Shown here piece by piece: positions 1 to 11,044 of a stretch of 11,044 nucleotides of DNA (position 1 is the stretch's first letter; each line of letters opens with the position of its first letter). Made by a program: the position numbers and the translations under genes. The DNA is from an uncultured Eubacteriales bacterium (GTDB taxonomy: Bacteria; Bacillota; Clostridia; Christensenellales; CAG-314): assembly GCA_900546875.1 (NCBI GenBank), contig URET01000038.1:1-11044 (forward strand), given 5' to 3'. The notes below the pieces were generated by a model. It saw only the letters and a list, made by a program, of their open reading frames with translations. It did no database searches and was not told the origin of the DNA.

Positions 1-250
1 GCGGCGTCGGGTGTTTTATATTCACAGCGTTGACGTACAATCTGAGGCTTCGGTATTTACGGCGCTGTTTGTATCTGTGGCATTGACATATATTCGCAAA
101 GTTGGTTTATATTAGCGGCGTCGACATATAAATTGCGGCGTCGGGTGTTTTATATTCACAGCGTTGACGTACAATCTGAGGCTTCGGTATTTACGGCGCT
201 GTTTGTATCTGTGGCATTGACATATATTCGCAAAGTTGGTTTATATTAGC
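1..250. repeat. 134-bp direct tandem repeat, about 1.9 copies (copy 1 = 1-134, copy 2 = 135-~250), cut off by the window start. Each unit contains ~45-bp sub-repeats carrying TTGAC(G/A)TA or TCGACATA cores next to TTTATATT.
   Basis: Bases 1-119 (gcggcgtcgggtgttttatattcacagcgttgacgtacaat...attagcggcgt) recur essentially base-for-base at 135-253. Within a unit, 'gttttatattcacagcgttgacgtacaat' and 'ggtttatattagcggcgtcgacatataaat' are about 70% identical. The array probably continues upstream of position 1. Confidence 0.9.
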
Positions 251-435
251 GGCGTTTTTTACGGTTTTTGTGCTGTCCTTGCCGTGTTTTACACTGCAGA
301 GGGCAGAAAAAGGGATTAGACAGACTAAATAAGTATATTGTATAAAATTCATAACACATGTTCAACAAAGACCGTCTGAAACAAAGTAAAATAAAAGAAT
401 ATGGTTTTGCTGTGAATGAAATTTCGCAAAAACAC

Positions 436-464
436 TTGCATTTATTTTCAGAATATGTTATAAT
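436..464 (+). promoter_or_regulatory. Sigma-A-type promoter for pepF: -35 TTGCAT (436-441), 17-bp spacer, extended -10 TGtTATAAT (456-464)
   Basis: Read directly: 'cacTTGCATttattttcagaatatgtTATAATat'. The spacing is exactly 17, TGn precedes the -10, and the element lies ~120 nt upstream of the pepF ATG with the same orientation. Confidence 0.6.
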
Positions 465-586
465 ATAAAAAACGACGGAAAGGAGATATTTGTGTCTTTT
501 AAAGGGGATAAAATAAGGCTTGAAAGAGCAGGTATTCCGAAGAGCGTCACCGCCGAGGCGGAAATAAAATAAAAAAAGGAGACAAT

Positions 587-3403: not shown

Positions 3404-4867
3404 ATGGTAGTAATAGGTTTTTTGCTCAGCGGAATAGTTTTTGAGCCGTTGCTGATAGCGCTTGTGATACTTGTAGTGGCGTTTCTTGTATTTCTTATTT
3501 CGAGATACCGTAAATGTCCGTCAGACAAAATACTTGTCATATACGGAAAGATAAAGGACAATAAGGACGGCACGCCGCGTTCGGCAAAGTGCATACACGG
3601 CGGAGCGTCATTGGTGTGGCCCTTTTTCCAAGGGTATCAGTACATGGATCTCACGCCCATATCGATCAGCGTCGACCTGAGAAACGCACTCAGCAGACAG
3701 AATATAAGAATTGACGTACCAAGTACTTTTACGGTAGGTATATCCACGGAGCAGGGAGTTATGCAGAATGCCGCCGAAAGGCTACTGGGACTTAAACTCA
3801 ATGAGATACAGGAGCTTGCAAAGGATATCATTTTCGGACAGCTTCGTCTTATTATAGCGACGATGGATATCGAGGAAATCAATACCGACAGAGATAAGTT
3901 CCTCGAAGCAGTGAGCAGAAACGTGGAAACAGAGCTCAAGAAGATAGGTCTCAGGCTCATAAACGTAAACGTTACCGATATAAACGACGTATCGGGCTAT
4001 ATAGACGCACTCGGAAAAGAGGCGGCGGCGAAAGCTATAAACGACGCGAAGAAGTCCGTGGCGGAGAAAAACAGAGACGGAAGCATAGGAGAAGCAAACG
4101 CTTTGATGGATCAGAGAATAAATGTTGCCGACGCCAATCAGAAAGCCATAAACGGCGAAAATGAGGCTATGGCGAAGATATCTCAGTCCAACGCCACGAG
4201 AAGGGAAGTAGAGGCGGAGTCATTAAGAAGGGCAACAACGGCGGAAAATATCGCAAAAGCCAAGGCTCTCGAAGATTCCTATACTGCTCAGATGGAAGCG
4301 GAAAAAGCGCGTGCAAGCAGAGAGAAAGCCACCTTGGAAGCCGATACGATAGTAAACGCGGAAATAGAAAAACGCAAGATGGAAATACAGGCGGAAGCCG
4401 AAGCCGAAAAGATGCGTCTTCACGCAAAGGGCGAAGCTGACGCAATATATGCCAAAATGCTGGCACAGGCAAAAGGTATCGAGGAAGTGCTCACCAAGCA
4501 GGCGGAAGGTTTTAAGAATATAGTCGAGGCGGCAGGCGGCGACGCAAACAGCGCTGTAAGACTTATGATCTCCGATAAGCTTGAGAATCTCGTGCGTATA
4601 CAGGTCGAAGCTGTAAAGAATATAAAGATCGACAAAGTCACGGTTTGGGACAGCGGAAAAGGCGAAAACGGAAACAGCTCAACAAGTAATTTTATAAGCT
4701 CGCTTTATAAATCCGTACCTCCGCTCAGCGAACTTTTCGACGCCGCAGGAATGAAACTGCCCGACTACCTCGGAACGGTAAAATCCCCCGAATCCGATCA
4801 GAATGCGGACAATAAAGACAGGCAGACAGCCGTGTCGGAAAACGTCCCCGTCAAGACCGAAGAATAG
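3404..4867 (+). CDS. floT: Flotillin-like SPFH/band-7 protein (FloT/YuaG type, 487 aa): N-terminal membrane hairpin, SPFH domain, Ala/Glu-rich coiled-coil flotillin repeats
   Basis: N-terminal hydrophobic hairpin MVVIGFLLSGIVFEPLLIALVILVVAFLVFLI, then an SPFH-like core (ISVDLRNALSRQNIRIDVPSTFTVGI...). A long EA-rich coiled-coil segment (EAEKARASREKATLEADTIVNAEIEKRKMEIQAEAEAEKMRLHAKGEADAIYAKMLAQAKG) is characteristic of bacterial flotillins. RBS 'gaaggagg' precedes the ATG at 3404. The gene symbol is given by analogy to the B. subtilis yuaF-floT pair. Confidence 0.88.
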   Translation: MVVIGFLLSGIVFEPLLIALVILVVAFLVFLISRYRKCPSDKILVIYGKIKDNKDGTPRSAKCIHGGASLVWPFFQGYQYMDLTPISISVDLRNALSRQNIRIDVPSTFTVGISTEQGVMQNAAERLLGLKLNEIQELAKDIIFGQLRLIIATMDIEEINTDRDKFLEAVSRNVETELKKIGLRLINVNVTDINDVSGYIDALGKEAAAKAINDAKKSVAEKNRDGSIGEANALMDQRINVADANQKAINGENEAMAKISQSNATRREVEAESLRRATTAENIAKAKALEDSYTAQMEAEKARASREKATLEADTIVNAEIEKRKMEIQAEAEAEKMRLHAKGEADAIYAKMLAQAKGIEEVLTKQAEGFKNIVEAAGGDANSAVRLMISDKLENLVRIQVEAVKNIKIDKVTVWDSGKGENGNSSTSNFISSLYKSVPPLSELFDAAGMKLPDYLGTVKSPESDQNADNKDRQTAVSENVPVKTEE

Positions 4868-4907
4868 TTTATGATTTTTTATCGAACGATATGACCGCTT
4901 ATTTGAA

Positions 4908-4937
4908 CCGGCTGCACAAAACAGTGCAGCCGGTTTG
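4908..4937 (+). terminator. Probable rho-independent terminator after the flotillin gene: stem CCGGCTGCAC / GTGCAGCCGG, loop aaaaca, then TTTG
   Basis: Seen at 4908-4933, a perfect 10-bp inverted repeat followed by TTTGAT. The T-tract is short, so strength is uncertain. Confidence 0.6.
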
Positions 4938-5260
4938 ATACTCCGGAGAATATGATCGGATTTTTAGAGTTTCAAAGCGGTGCGATGTCGCTTTTTTAAG
5001 TGCAGCGCCCTTATCCGGATTTCAAATCAGGTTTTTTCTGCCAGTATCGGCTTATTATTTAATTAAAGCTCATACCGTAATTCAAGCTGATATCGCTAAA
5101 AAGTATTGAAATATAAAACACGATCGCCCGCGCATCGGAAACCCTGCCTTTTCAGAACGGTTTTTTTCACGGAAACAGGTCAGATGTATTGCATCAAGGC
5201 ATTTGTACTCATCAGGCAAGGCTGCAGGCAGTCGAAGGGAAATATTTTCGTGAAAAAAAT

Positions 5261-5400
5261 CGCCGGTAAAAAACGACGTAAATTCTATCCCGAAGAAATC
5301 TGCGGGTAAAAAACGACGTAAATGCTATCCCGAAGAAATCTGCGGGTAAAAAACGACGTAAATGCTATCCCGAAAATATCCGCCTGTAAAACCTGCGGCT
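5261..5400. repeat. Perfect head-to-tail tandem repeat, 3 x 40 bp (5265-5304, 5305-5344, 5345-5384) plus a degenerate partial fourth copy. Unit: ggtaaaaaacgacgtaaat(g/t)ctatcccgaagaaatctgcg.
   Basis: Copies 1 and 2 differ at one base, and copy 3 diverges only in its last ~10 nt. The period is exactly 40 bp, which is not a multiple of 3. The repeat lies in an ~830-bp ORF-free region between the convergent flotillin and glycosylase-like genes. Confidence 0.9.
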
Positions 5401-5697
5401 TAATTTTTTATCGACCTTTTTTAAGCATAGAAAAAACGGCTGCAGCAGGCGATTTGTTTCGGCTGTACAGTGAGATGTTCCGATAGGCGGTCGTTTCTGA
5501 AATGTATCAGGGCTCCCGGCGGGTTTCGTGATCCGCTTTATATAACGTGTGAAACTTTCCGAAGCTATGAAGAAAAATGTTTTTTGCGATAGTACAGTAA
5601 GGTCCGGATGCGAGATCTGAAAATAAGAAAGAGAGGCCGTATTCTTCTCAGGACTTATTGACCGTTGTCTTTCTCGTATAACGCCACAGAAAGATAC

Positions 5698-6750
5698 TTA
5701 TTCATCAAAACTTATTGATGTAATGTCATTCCACAGCGTGCCTGCAAAATCGGCAACGATGTCTTTTTCTTGTTGCGTTACTGTTTTGAACATCGTAACC
5801 GACAATTTTTTATTCTTCTTTTTCCATTTGCCGACCACTTCGCCATCAATCATCAATGCAGGCATTACAATCCCTGCGAGATTGAATATCGCCCTCAAAT
5901 TCTCTTGGCTTAAAAACAAGCTTTCCTTTTTTTCGTGAGCTAAAAGAAGTTGGTCAAATCCTGCAAGGAACAGACATTTTGGAATCCCTTGATCGTAAGT
6001 CTGATTGTTGTCGATATAAAAATAGGTTTTACCTTCACATTCTGCTGTTGATACAGGCAGTTTGGAAAGCCAATCCTTAACCTGTGCGGCTGTTGCATGA
6101 AAATAGTACATGGCATCGTGAATGGTGGAAGGTCCCATGTGGGTAAAGTATCGACGAGCCATTTCAAGGTTTGCTTCTTGCTCCGGAATGGGAGTAAACG
6201 CAGGAGATAAGCAGAAAGCTTTCTTTTCCTGGACAACATAGTTTATAAATCCACGTTCGCACATTTCACGAACGCCGCCACCCCATTGGTCGAACATACT
6301 GCTTTCTTCGGGTTCGGTCATACCGTTTTGTCTGCAGACATCCTTTAATTCTTCTCTTGTCAGCTCGGAGTATTTAAGAGCATCTAAGATCACATTAGCA
6401 AAATAAGCCTGTCGCTCCGGTGTAAGTGCCCATTTATCACGCTGATTCCAAAACGTATATCCACGCCAATCGTTACGCAAATAATCTTGCCCATTATTGC
6501 AATGAATGAATAATGGCAGATCATCTTCGGCAAACACATGAACTGTTCCTCTGACTGTCCAGTTTTTTACAAGCCCATTTTTGACAGTATCCTTATTATA
6601 ATCTGAACACCTTATTTTCAGCGAGTGCATAGCGTTTACCATGAATTGCGCTTGAACACCACAAAGATCATGGAGGACGGTCATTTTATCTGTCGGTTGG
6701 AGCAAATGTTGATTTGCCATCTGACGAATTTTTATTTCTTCTATGGTCAT
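5698..6750 (-). CDS. Winged-helix HTH_42/DUF1006 protein of the AlkZ/YcaQ DNA-glycosylase family, AlkZ-like subtype with a Q-x-Q motif (350 aa)
   Basis: Length, overall composition and multiple Trp-containing motifs resemble the YcaQ/AlkZ 'winged helix DNA-binding domain-containing protein' family (recalled, not searched). The N-terminal region LHDLCGVQAQF places Q33-A34-Q35 at the position of the catalytic (H/Q)-phi-Q motif of AlkZ-like glycosylases. This is the last gene of the minus-strand operon, 15 nt after the PurN stop. Confidence 0.55.
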   Translation of the reverse strand: MTIEEIKIRQMANQHLLQPTDKMTVLHDLCGVQAQFMVNAMHSLKIRCSDYNKDTVKNGLVKNWTVRGTVHVFAEDDLPLFIHCNNGQDYLRNDWRGYTFWNQRDKWALTPERQAYFANVILDALKYSELTREELKDVCRQNGMTEPEESSMFDQWGGGVREMCERGFINYVVQEKKAFCLSPAFTPIPEQEANLEMARRYFTHMGPSTIHDAMYYFHATAAQVKDWLSKLPVSTAECEGKTYFYIDNNQTYDQGIPKCLFLAGFDQLLLAHEKKESLFLSQENLRAIFNLAGIVMPALMIDGEVVGKWKKKNKKLSVTMFKTVTQQEKDIVADFAGTLWNDITSISFDE

Positions 6751-6765
6751 CGTGTACCTACTCGT

Positions 6766-7360
6766 TCACCCTAAAACAATCTTTCCGTTGATAATGTCTG
6801 CAATCACTTCGACCAAAAAGGTATGCTCCCTTTCAAGAACTCTTGCAGCCAATATCTCCGGTGTATCGTTCTCCAATACCGGCACTGTAGTCTGAGCAAC
6901 GATCTCGCCGCTATCGTATTCGGCATTTACACGGTGAATCGTTACTCCGGTTTCTTTTTCTTTTGCTTCAATTACGGCAGTATGTACGTTCATCCCATAC
7001 ATTCCTTTGCCGCCGAACTTGGGCAGCAGAGCAGGATGGATGTTAAAGATTCTGTTGTTATACTTTTCCAAAACCGTGATATGTAACATTCTCATGTACC
7101 CAGCCAAGAAAATCATATCAACCTCGTGGGTAGCCAACACATCAAGGATTTCTTTAGCGAGAGCTTCTTCGCTTCCGAATTTTTTTTGCGCTCAAATGAT
7201 ATGCCGAAATATTCTCATTGTTGGCTCTCTGTAAAGCCATAGAATCAGCGTTATTGCTTATAACAGCCACAACCGTAGCATTGATCTTATTGCTTTTACA
7301 TCCGTCGATAATTGCTTGTAAATCACTACCTCCATGAGAGACAAAAACAGCTATATTCAT
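6766..7360 (-). pseudogene. purN: Phosphoribosylglycinamide formyltransferase (PurN-type, formyl_trans_N), interrupted by a +1 frameshift in a T8/A8 homopolymer (7180-7187). The track splits it into ORFs 7154-7366 and 6766-7140. Either a pseudogene or a sequencing indel.
   Basis: The N-terminal fragment MNIAVFVSHGGSDLQAIIDGCKSNKINATVVAVISNNADSMALQRANNENISAYHLSAKK matches the PurN N-terminus, and the downstream fragment ...LAGYMRMLHITVLEKYNNRIFNIHPALLPKFGG...VHTAVIEAKEKETGVTIHRVNAEYDSGEIVAQTTVPVLENDTPEILAARVLEREH carries the NxHP-LLP and Asp catalytic motifs. On the coding strand, removing one A from 'gcaAAAAAAAAttcgg' fuses the two into ...AYHLSAKKFGSEEALAKEILDVLATHEVDMIFLAGYMRML. The likely start is the second ATG (7358-7360), 8 nt after GGAGG. 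Confidence 0.8.
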
Positions 7361-7379
7361 ATTCATATCCTCCGTTGCT

Positions 7380-8069
7380 TTATAGTTCGGTCAAAACACC
7401 ACCGTTGAATCCGTATATGTTTTCTTTTTTGAATCCGTATAAAGACCAAGGCAAACTGATATGCGGTTCAAAAGTAAACGCTTCGACAGCGGACAGTTTT
7501 TCCGTGTTTCCTTTTTCGATGTAGATACGGTGTCTTTTATTCTTAACTATGGAATGACCCAAGTTTCCAAGAAAATCAAGGTTGACATACCCACGAGCTT
7601 TGATCTGATCGTTTATGTAGTAGAACAGCTCCTCAAAAGTTGTGTTCTCATTCACGAAACCAAGCATAGCTTCGTGCAGATAGGCTTCCATTTTGAGACC
7701 GTTTCGCCATTCATCATTCTGTATTTGCTCTATGTCTTTGACGATTTTTCCGTTTTCTACGATCAGCGTTCTGGCGTAGTCGCCCCAAATGCAGTTGTTT
7801 TGCGGGCTTAAATCTATTGTGATAATATCGTTTGACTCAATTATGTGGTCATCTGTTTTATACTCACGACCGGATACCGATACAGCGGTCTTTTCACCGG
7901 CGAAAACAAAAGCACCCACATCCCAATACCAAAAGGAAACCGCACCATGGGAAAGCATATATTCCTCACACAGTTGGCGAAGCTCAACAAGCGTCATGCC
8001 GGGCACAATAACTGTTGAAGCATATTCAATGGTGGCTCGGTTCAAATTTTGCATTTCGTGAATAGTCAT
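7380..8069 (-). CDS. M24-family (pita-bread fold, methionine-aminopeptidase-like) metallopeptidase, ~229 aa
   Basis: Alignable by eye to the MetAP core: PGMTLVELRQLCEEYMLSHGA corresponds to PGVSTGELDRICNDYIV. The two metal Asp are 11 residues apart in DIITIDLSPQNNCIWGDYARTL, followed by GHSIV (His), FTFEPHI (Glu) and a C-terminal Glu. The start is taken as ATG 8067-8069, preceded by RBS GGAG. Its ATG overlaps the TGA of the upstream Cys-rich frame (TGATG). Confidence 0.6.
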   Translation of the reverse strand: MTIHEMQNLNRATIEYASTVIVPGMTLVELRQLCEEYMLSHGAVSFWYWDVGAFVFAGEKTAVSVSGREYKTDDHIIESNDIITIDLSPQNNCIWGDYARTLIVENGKIVKDIEQIQNDEWRNGLKMEAYLHEAMLGFVNENTTFEELFYYINDQIKARGYVNLDFLGNLGHSIVKNKRHRIYIEKGNTEKLSAVEAFTFEPHISLPWSLYGFKKENIYGFNGGVLTEL

Positions 8070-10549: not shown

Positions 10550-10744
10550 CTTCCGGAAGGGCGCCCTCACGCTTTCCTGCAGGGTTTTCGGCTTTTTTTC
10601 AGGATACTAAAAGACTTAAAACTTACTTACGGAAAACCACCGGAAAATCTGCCCGCTTTCATTGGGGAACCGAAAGCGTCTGCAGACGTTTCTTGAGCGG
10701 AAACAGTGCCGTCAGGAAGAGGAAACTGTTTTCCGTGCTTCAAA

Positions 10745-11044
10745 CACGTGCCTTGTCTTCCCGGGGCCGCAAACGTGTCTCGCTTTTCCGGGCTTCGTAA
10801 GCGTGCCTTGTCTTCCCGGCTTCGTAAGCGTGTCTCGCTTTTCCGGGCTTCGTAGCGTGCCTTGTCTTCCCGGGCTCCGCAAGCGTGTCTCGTTTTCCCG
10901 GGCTTCGCAAACGTGCCTCGCTTTTCCGGGCTTCGTAAACGTGTTTCGCTTTTTCGGGCTCCGTAAACGTGTCTCGCTTTCCCGAATTACGTAGGCAGGT
11001 CTCGTTTTCCCGGGCTTCGCAAACGTGTTTCGCTTTTCCGGGCT
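10745..11044. repeat. Tandem array of at least 11 units of a 27-28-bp repeat (consensus ~cgtgtctcgcttttccgggcttcgtaag, alternating with a variant cgtgccttgtcttcccggcttcgtaag), running off the right edge of the window
   Basis: The 'cgtg' landmark recurs at 10747, 10774, 10802, 10829, 10856, 10884, 10912, 10940, 10968, (10996 variant) and 11024, giving a period of 27-28 bp. Most units contain the hairpin AAGCG-tgtct-CGCTT followed by TT(T)TCC. There are no unique spacers, so this is not CRISPR. Confidence 0.9.

What the first reader, a model, noticed from the sequence alone, without database searches (positions are those of the whole stretch)
4868..5697. 830-bp ORF-free convergent intergenic region containing a perfect 3 x 40-bp tandem repeat
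Between the flotillin terminator and the 3' end of the glycosylase-like gene there is an unusually long stretch with no credible ORF on either strand. The only ORF there, 5106-5309, has no RBS and runs into the repeat. Its centre holds three head-to-tail 40-bp copies differing by one base, plus a decayed fourth copy. Such near-perfect short tandem arrays are young or under selection, as with iterons, transcription-factor site arrays, or a small RNA or mobile-element remnant. This region is where an unannotated ncRNA is most likely to lie.
Basis: seen in the sequence. Interest (0 to 1): 0.5.

Follow-up and report, generated by a model that had tools for sequence, protein, structure and literature searches.

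The report
Variable 40-bp tandem repeat in spacer
The repeat is real, but it looks like an ordinary unstable minisatellite (2 to 5 copies in different strains of one uncultured human-gut Clostridia species) in a non-coding gap between two gene ends, with no sign of a hidden RNA gene, protein gene or replication element.

Summary
The 830-bp gap (4868-5697) between the 3' ends of a flotillin gene (+) and an AlkZ-like glycosylase gene (-) is real, and so is the 40-bp tandem array. "Perfect 3 x 40" overstates it. There are 2.75 near-identical units (5265-5374, one mismatch), flanked by decayed units at 5240-5264 and 5375-5399.

In 15 complete copies of this locus (window plus 14 contigs) from conspecific gut-metagenome strains, the array has 2, 3, 4 or 5 cores. 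Unit variants occur in different orders. Strains with no SNP in 3.3 kb around the array still differ in copy number. Six of 20 contigs break inside the array.

The unit was found only at this locus. It is absent from the neighbourhoods of the closest related species that were fetched, from reference genomes, and from plasmids and phages.

Rfam scans gave only noise. Only the flotillin terminator hairpin folds better than shuffles. Small ORFs are not conserved. The longest open frame is unremarkable and has no credible homologue. Promoter-like matches are at chance level. No dif site or rep/par genes are present.

Verdict: a fast-evolving, probably neutral VNTR maintained by slippage or unequal exchange. 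The ncRNA and iteron readings are not supported. Low interest, apart from use as a strain marker.

The parts
4868..5697 (.). Non-coding spacer between the convergent 3' ends of flotillin (+) and the AlkZ-like gene (-). It is specific to this species.
   Evidence: ORF list and Pfam. No similarity to the neighbourhoods of flotillin or AlkZ relatives. No plasmid or phage match.
4906..4935 (+). Perfect 12-bp-stem hairpin (AACCGGCTGCAC-N6-GTGCAGCCGGTT), the likely flotillin terminator. It is the only significantly stable structure in the spacer.
   Evidence: the repeat finder I3. Fold of 4895-5005 has z = -5.0. Sliding z-score scan.
5240..5279 (.). Decayed left edge unit. It matches the first full unit at 30 of 40 positions, and only its last 15 nt belong to the near-perfect span.
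5280..5319 (.). Full unit 1 (AAATT type): AAATTCTATCCCGAAGAAATCTGCGGGTAAAAAACGACGT.
5320..5359 (.). Full unit 2 (AAATG type), 39 of 40 identical to unit 1. The number of such units varies between strains.
5360..5399 (.). Decayed right edge unit. The first 15 nt are identical to unit 2, then it diverges (28-29 of 40).
5289..5306 (.). Imperfect 18-bp palindrome CCCGAAGAAATCTGCGGG inside the unit, also at 5329-5346. 7 of 9 pairs are complementary, which is not significant.
   Evidence: 5.6% of unit shuffles do as well. The motif occurs only inside the array in 21 kb of the same genome.
5282..5310 (-). Weak sigma-70-like match on the minus strand of a unit (TTTACC-N17-TAGAAT, 9 of 12). A similar match lies at 5362-5390.
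   Evidence: 9-of-12 matches are near chance level across the whole window (26 found against 18.2 +/- 4.2 expected).
5261..5278 (-). Marginal terminator-like hairpin (5-bp stem, 8-nt loop, then ATTTTTTT) at the left edge of the array on the minus strand.
   Evidence: Terminator-like counts are not above the shuffles.

Best explanation
This is a single-locus minisatellite (VNTR) of 40-bp units in a non-coding spacer that is specific to one species. The spacer lies beyond the ends of two convergent genes. The array most likely arose by duplication of a 40-bp segment. It now gains and loses whole units by replication slippage or unequal exchange between the direct repeats. That keeps the inner units nearly identical while the edge units, which take part less in exchange, decay. 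Copy number changes much faster than point mutation. Because the array lies 386 bp past the flotillin stop codon (beyond its terminator hairpin) and 306 bp past the AlkZ stop codon, gain or loss of a unit has no evident consequence. Shown: the anatomy, the copy-number polymorphism, the single-locus distribution, and the lack of coding, Rfam or structure signal. Inferred: the slippage mechanism and neutrality.
For: Array length between fixed anchors is 140, 180, 220 or 260 nt (2, 3, 4 or 5 cores) in 15 complete copies of the locus (window plus 14 contigs) from different samples and assemblers. The unit variants AAATT/AAATG, CGGG/CCGG and ACGT/ACGG occur in different orders, which implies several independent events. 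L001 (4 cores) and L003 and L006 (3 cores each) have no SNP against the window (3 cores) over 3404-6750. L002 (2 cores) has one difference, in the array. So copy number changes faster than substitution. Edge units have decayed and inner units are homogenised. Six of 20 contigs end inside the array, the usual behaviour of short-read assemblers at tandem repeats. A 28-mer of the unit hits only this same locus in metagenome contigs. The 19-mer gives only 5 single hits in unrelated reference genomes, a number I estimate chance alone would give. The array is absent downstream of flotillin in the nearest relatives (83% and 80% identity). Rfam gives nothing. No RNA or DNA fold of the array is unusually stable. 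Small ORFs are frameshifted or interrupted in the diverged L026 lineage. Two other tandem arrays lie in other spacers of the same window, and the 28-bp one spans about 700 bp in L001. This suggests the genome tolerates such arrays.
Against: Neutrality is inferred, not measured, and no expression data exist. Each unit carries a weak minus-strand promoter-like match and an imperfect 18-bp palindrome. The right half of the spacer (5392-5697) has few segregating sites, 4 in 306 bp against 34 in 1053 bp of AlkZ. The sample is about 11 strains with mosaic recombination. Copy numbers come from short-read assemblies, which can miscount tandem units.
Confidence: 0.78

Rival explanations
1. The array is a cis-regulatory element with variable copy number. 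In this reading, tandem weak sigma-A promoters on the minus strand (TTTACC-N17-TAGCAT in each unit) drive a small or antisense RNA that runs towards the flotillin 3' end, and unit number tunes its output.
For: Promoter-like hexamers lie at 5310..5282 and 5390..5362 on the minus strand. Terminator-like hairpins with T-runs lie downstream on the same strand at 5278-5261 and 5133-5118.
Against: The matches are only 9 of 12. Such matches are near chance frequency in the window (26 against 18.2 +/- 4.2) and in the region (3 against 2.3 +/- 1.3). Folding is not significant on the minus strand of 5050-5250 (z between -0.1 and +2.1). There is no Rfam hit. The presumed transcribed stretch 4868-5190 is the most diverged part of the spacer in L026/L027 (about 9%) and carries indels.
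Confidence: 0.07
2. The array is a set of protein-binding sites, iteron-like or centromere-like as in sopC of plasmid F. Each unit would offer the quasi-palindrome CCCGnAGA-NN-TCTnCGGG to a dimeric DNA-binding protein.
For: The units are regularly spaced and each has a 7-of-9 inverted repeat.
Against: The palindrome is not significant, since 5.6% of shuffles do as well. It is broken by CGGG>CCGG in some units of L034 and L035. It occurs nowhere else in 21 kb of the genome. No rep, parA or parB gene lies within about 10 kb on either side. There is no similarity to any plasmid or phage record. Copy number drops to 2 cores, with a single exact palindrome, with no linked change.
Confidence: 0.05
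3. The spacer is the decayed remnant of a lost gene or mobile element, and the repeat is part of that remnant.
For: The spacer is unusually long. The adjacent AlkZ-like gene sits in unrelated contexts in relatives with 79-92% identical proteins, so this junction is evolutionarily young. A 110-codon open frame lies at 5368-5697 on the minus strand.
Against: An open frame that long occurs in 15% of shuffles. A phmmer search of it against 1.84 billion representatives found only two repetitive proteins, matched in several stretches each, which I judge spurious. Six-frame fragments match nothing in related loci. There are no terminal inverted repeats at the spacer ends, and the sequence is not dispersed.
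Confidence: 0.08
4. The spacer marks the replication terminus or a dif region, because genes converge here and cumulative GC skew peaks here.
For: Cumulative GC skew of the window peaks at about 5400-5700.
Against: In the 21-kb locus L001 the skew simply follows gene orientation and is negative again on both outer sides. No dif-like site is found with up to 3 mismatches.
Confidence: 0.02

Closest known systems
Bacterial VNTR / minisatellite loci, as used for MLVA typing (for example the Yersinia pestis VNTRs in PMC3689786; reviewed in PMC3899988)
   Same: Head-to-tail units of tens of bp. Copy number is polymorphic among near-identical strains. Inner units are homogenised and edge units decayed. 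The location is intergenic. The array causes assembly breaks (compare PMC6868369).
   Different: It has not been described before. It lies in an uncultured gut Clostridia species. It sits between two 3' ends, so it is even less likely than many VNTRs to affect a gene.
MIRU (mycobacterial interspersed repetitive units). This comparison rests on my own knowledge.
   Same: Tandem units of about 40-100 bp in intergenic DNA, with variable copy number between strains.
   Different: MIRUs are a dispersed family at tens of loci, usually between co-directional genes of an operon. This unit was found at one locus only and lies between convergent genes.
sopC centromere of plasmid F and plasmid iterons. 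This comparison rests on my own knowledge.
   Same: Regular tandem units (43 bp in sopC), each holding an inverted repeat.
   Different: There is no partner par or rep gene, no plasmid or phage context, the palindrome is not significant, and unit number is freely variable.

Membership tests
VNTR / minisatellite | Head-to-tail direct repeats with a unit of about 10-100 bp | tested here: met
   TRF reports period 40 with 3.0-3.5 copies. The register analysis agrees.
VNTR / minisatellite | Copy number polymorphic among strains of one species while the flanks are conserved | tested here: met
   2, 3, 4 or 5 cores in 15 complete copies of the locus. The flanks are identical or nearly so.
VNTR / minisatellite | Copy number confirmed independently of short-read assembly | not testable with these tools
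   Only assemblies are available. Distinguishable unit variants, and the same lengths recurring from different assemblers, argue against an artefact.
Known ncRNA family (Rfam 15) | Match to a covariance model at or near its gathering score | tested here: not met
   No hit in 4868-5697 at E<=1 over the whole window. Scanning the region alone gave hits of 11-20 bits against gathering scores of 37-137, all to eukaryotic miRNA or snoRNA models or unrelated sRNAs.
Structured ncRNA in general | Folding energy significantly below shuffles, or covariation | tested here: not met
   Only the terminator hairpin at 4906-4935 is significant. The array has z = -1.8 (+) and -2.8 (-). Covariation cannot be tested because no homologues exist outside the species.
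Iterons / replication origin | Repeats next to a rep gene and an AT-rich unwinding element, in a plasmid or phage context | tested here: not met
   The gene lists within about 10 kb on either side hold no rep gene. There is no plasmid or phage similarity.
Dispersed repeat families (REP, MITE, MIRU-like) | The same unit at many loci of the genome | tested here: not met
   The 28-mer hits only this locus in 3 metagenome contigs. The 13-mer core with up to 2 mismatches is not enriched elsewhere in 21 kb. The whole genome was not available.
CRISPR array | Repeats separated by unique spacers of similar length | tested here: not met
   The units abut one another without spacers.
dif / replication terminus | A 28-bp XerCD-type site at a genome-wide skew switch | tested here: not met
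   There is no dif-like match. Skew follows gene strand.
Phase-variable contingency locus | The repeat lies inside a coding region or promoter, so a change in unit number switches a gene | tested here: not met
   Both neighbouring genes end towards the array. The ORFs touching it (5106-5309, 5322-5486) lack an RBS. The start codon of 5322-5486 is absent in strains whose last units are of AAATT type, such as L036.

The most novel reading that the evidence does not exclude
The array is a functional cis element whose output scales with copy number. It would be either a stack of weak minus-strand promoters producing an RNA antisense to the flotillin 3' region, or a stack of quasi-palindromic operator sites that titrate a DNA-binding protein. 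Strains would then tune dosage by slippage.
Probability: 0.07. Interest if true: 0.4.

Novelty: new member of a known kind. Interest (0 to 1): 0.1.

Why it matters
It matters little for biology. It is one more bacterial VNTR, sitting where it can hardly affect a gene. There are two practical points. (1) It could be a fast-evolving marker for tracking strains of an uncultured human-gut Clostridia species, since it separates strains that are identical over kilobases. (2) It repeatedly breaks short-read contigs, so copy numbers taken from assemblies need care. It also shows that a long ORF-free convergent spacer holding a crisp repeat does not, by that alone, indicate an ncRNA.

Tried and rejected
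- **Rfam:** scans of the whole window and of the region alone found nothing.
- **tRNA/tmRNA:** none found.
- **RNA stability:** a sliding-window z-score scan on both strands found only the flotillin terminator.
- **Array folds:** RNA and DNA folds of the array were not significant.
- **Promoters and terminators:** matches were at chance level.
- **dif site or terminus:** rejected.
- **Plasmid and phage similarity:** blastn found no match.
- **Unit in viral contigs:** two unrelated single hits.
- **Unit in reference genomes:** five single hits in unrelated MAGs, a number I estimate chance alone would give.
- **Synteny through AlkZ homologues:** this failed because the gene sits in unrelated contexts. 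Flotillin was used as the anchor instead.
- **Pseudogene remnant:** six-frame fragments were compared with related loci. The 110-aa open frame is not unusual. Its two hits against 1.84 billion proteins are to repetitive proteins and look spurious.
- **Small ORFs:** they are not conserved in the diverged lineage.
- **Core motif GTAAAAAACGNCG as a regulon motif:** there are only two extra near-matches, at 250-262 and 465-477, which is not significant once the array is set aside.
- **Quasi-palindrome as an operator:** not significant, and found only in the array.
- **Recombination breakpoint at the array:** the diverged patch in L026/L027 runs from about 4730 to 5190 and ends about 60 bp before the array, so there is no clear link.

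Full report
**Observation.**
The flotillin/Band_7 ORF (3404-4867, +) and the AlkZ-like glycosylase ORF (5698-6750, -; PF06224) converge on an 830-bp gap. TRF reports a 40-bp period at 5257-5374 (3.0 copies, 96% matches) or 5254-5391 (3.5 copies, 89%). A lag-40 self-comparison shows the near-perfect repeated span is 5265-5374. That is 110 nt, or 2.75 units, with one mismatch. In the register 5240/5280/5320/5360 the units match the first full unit at 30, 40, 39 and 28 of 40 positions. So there are two near-identical full units with a decayed unit on each side. The repeat is real, but "perfect 3 x 40 plus a decayed fourth" overstates it. Two ORFs of at least 50 aa touch the array, 5106-5309 and 5322-5486, not one.

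**Coding potential.**
- 40 is not a multiple of 3 and one frame per strand of the unit carries stop codons. Every frame therefore closes within three units.
- In the diverged lineage L026/L027 the small ORFs of the left half are frameshifted or interrupted. The one that stays intact carries only non-synonymous changes.
- The start codon of 5322-5486 is missing in strains whose last units are of the AAATT type, such as L036.
- The longest open frame is 110 codons (5368-5697, minus strand). A frame that long occurs in 15% of dinucleotide shuffles.
- A phmmer search of that frame against 1.84 billion representatives found only two repetitive proteins, matched in several stretches each. I judge these spurious.
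- Six-frame fragments of the spacer match nothing in related loci.

**RNA.**
Rfam 15 gave no hit in the spacer at E<=1 over the whole window. On the region alone it gave only 11-20-bit noise, against gathering scores of 37-137. No tRNA or tmRNA was found. In a 100-nt sliding fold on both strands, only windows containing the hairpin 4906-4935 are significant (z about -5). That hairpin has a perfect 12-bp stem and is the likely flotillin terminator. The array folds at z = -1.8 (+) and -2.8 (-) as RNA, and -0.8 as DNA. Promoter-like matches on the minus strand of the units score 9 of 12. That class is about as frequent as in shuffles, both in the region (3 against 2.3) and in the window (26 against 18.2 +/- 4.2).

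**Comparison with other strains.**
Exact-protein look-ups and one metagenome pattern scan returned 20 contigs of the same species. The samples include one titled "human gut metagenome". The nearest named flotillin homologues, at 80% identity, are "Clostridia bacterium" MAGs.

Between fixed anchors, the array length falls into four classes:

| Length (nt) | Cores | Loci |
|---|---|---|
| 140 | 2 | L002, L005, L026, L027, L036 |
| 180 | 3 | window, L003, L006, L007 |
| 220 | 4 | L001, L034 (L004 is partial, with at least 4) |
| 260 | 5 | L035 |

- The unit variants AAATT/AAATG, CGGG/CCGG and ACGT/ACGG occur in different orders, so several independent gains and losses are needed.
- L001, L003 and L006 have no SNP against the window over 3404-6750, and L002 has one difference in the array. 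These four carry 4, 3, 3 and 2 cores. Copy number therefore changes much faster than bases substitute.
- Six contigs end inside the array: L004, L008, L009, L010, L028 and L029. Short-read assemblers typically break at tandem repeats.
- Because only assemblies are available, the exact counts need long-read confirmation.

**Distribution.**
- The 19-mer core gave five single hits in unrelated reference genomes, a number I estimate chance alone would give.
- A 28-mer of the unit hit only this same locus in three metagenome contigs.
- Viral contigs gave two unrelated single hits.
- blastn against plasmids and phages found nothing.
- The AlkZ-like gene lies in unrelated contexts in relatives with 79-92% identical proteins.
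- Downstream of flotillin, the nearest related species have other genes after 300-400-bp gaps with no similarity to this spacer.
- The spacer and its array are therefore specific to this species and to this one locus, as far as the data reach.

**Other readings tested.**
- **Terminus or dif.** The local GC-skew maximum reflects gene orientation, since skew is negative again on both outer sides of the 21-kb locus L001. No dif-like site exists.
- **Iterons or centromere.** No rep or par genes lie within about 10 kb on either side. The 18-bp quasi-palindrome in each unit is matched by 5.6% of shuffles. It is mutated in some units, and it occurs only in the array.
- **Regulon motif.** The core has only two extra near-matches in the window, one of them just after the -10 box of the pepF promoter. 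That is not significant.
- **Mobile-element scar.** There are no terminal inverted repeats at the spacer ends.
- **Selection on the spacer.** The right half has 4 segregating sites in 306 bp, against 34 in 1053 bp of AlkZ. The left half has 36 in 386 bp, mostly from one imported patch (about 4730-5190) in L026/L027. About 11 mosaic strains are too few to argue for constraint.

**Conclusion.**
This is a single-locus, fast-evolving 40-bp minisatellite in a non-coding spacer between two gene ends. It is most likely maintained by slippage or unequal exchange, and most likely has no function. The mechanism and the neutrality are inferred. The anatomy, the polymorphism and the negative searches are shown. 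It is a new locus of a well-known kind (VNTRs: PMC3689786, PMC3899988; assembly problems: PMC6868369). The window holds two other tandem arrays in other spacers, and the 28-bp one spans about 700 bp in L001. This fits a genome that tolerates such repeats.

Noticed in passing
window 10729-11044 (runs off the window end); L001 5316-6022: A 28-bp tandem array (also read as 55- or 112-bp periods, 74-84% matches) fills the spacer between an SDR gene and the CitMHS transporter gene. It spans about 700 bp in L001. In L004 a 281-aa ORF with no Pfam hit was called in this spacer (L004 4901-5746). Alignments between strains break up here, which suggests a second VNTR.
   Followed up: partly
window 1-255: A 134-bp unit is repeated 1.9 times at 100% identity upstream of the pepF promoter and is cut by the window start. 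Alignments to L001, L003, L026 and L036 stop at window 67-89, so this duplication may differ between strains.
   Followed up: partly
window 6752-8045: L005, L034 and L036 lack this segment, which holds the formyltransferase-like gene and the M24 peptidase gene. It is a deletion or insertion polymorphism next to the AlkZ-like gene.
   Followed up: partly
window 6766-7366: The Formyl_trans_N (purN-like) gene is split into two ORFs (68 + 116 aa as called in L001-L004, L007 and L010; L009 differs, 55 + 116) in the window and most strains. It is intact (197-199 aa) in L008, L026 and L027. This is a frameshift pseudogene polymorphism.
   Followed up: no
window 5698-6750; L016-L025: Proteins 79-92% identical to the AlkZ-like glycosylase lie in entirely different gene neighbourhoods: PIN toxin/AAA-ATPase, aldose epimerase, DUF1508, and a reverse transcriptase/SLATT/Fic island. 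The gene therefore appears to move between contexts.
   Followed up: partly
window about 4730-5190: L026 and L027 carry a patch about 9% diverged, covering the flotillin 3' end and the left half of the spacer. It is flanked by DNA that is less than 1% diverged, which looks like a recombination import from a more distant lineage.
   Followed up: partly
window 433-480: A near-consensus promoter (TTGCAT-N17-TATAAT) lies upstream of pepF and is followed by ATAAAAAACGACGG, which resembles the core of the 40-bp unit. This is probably coincidence.
   Followed up: partly
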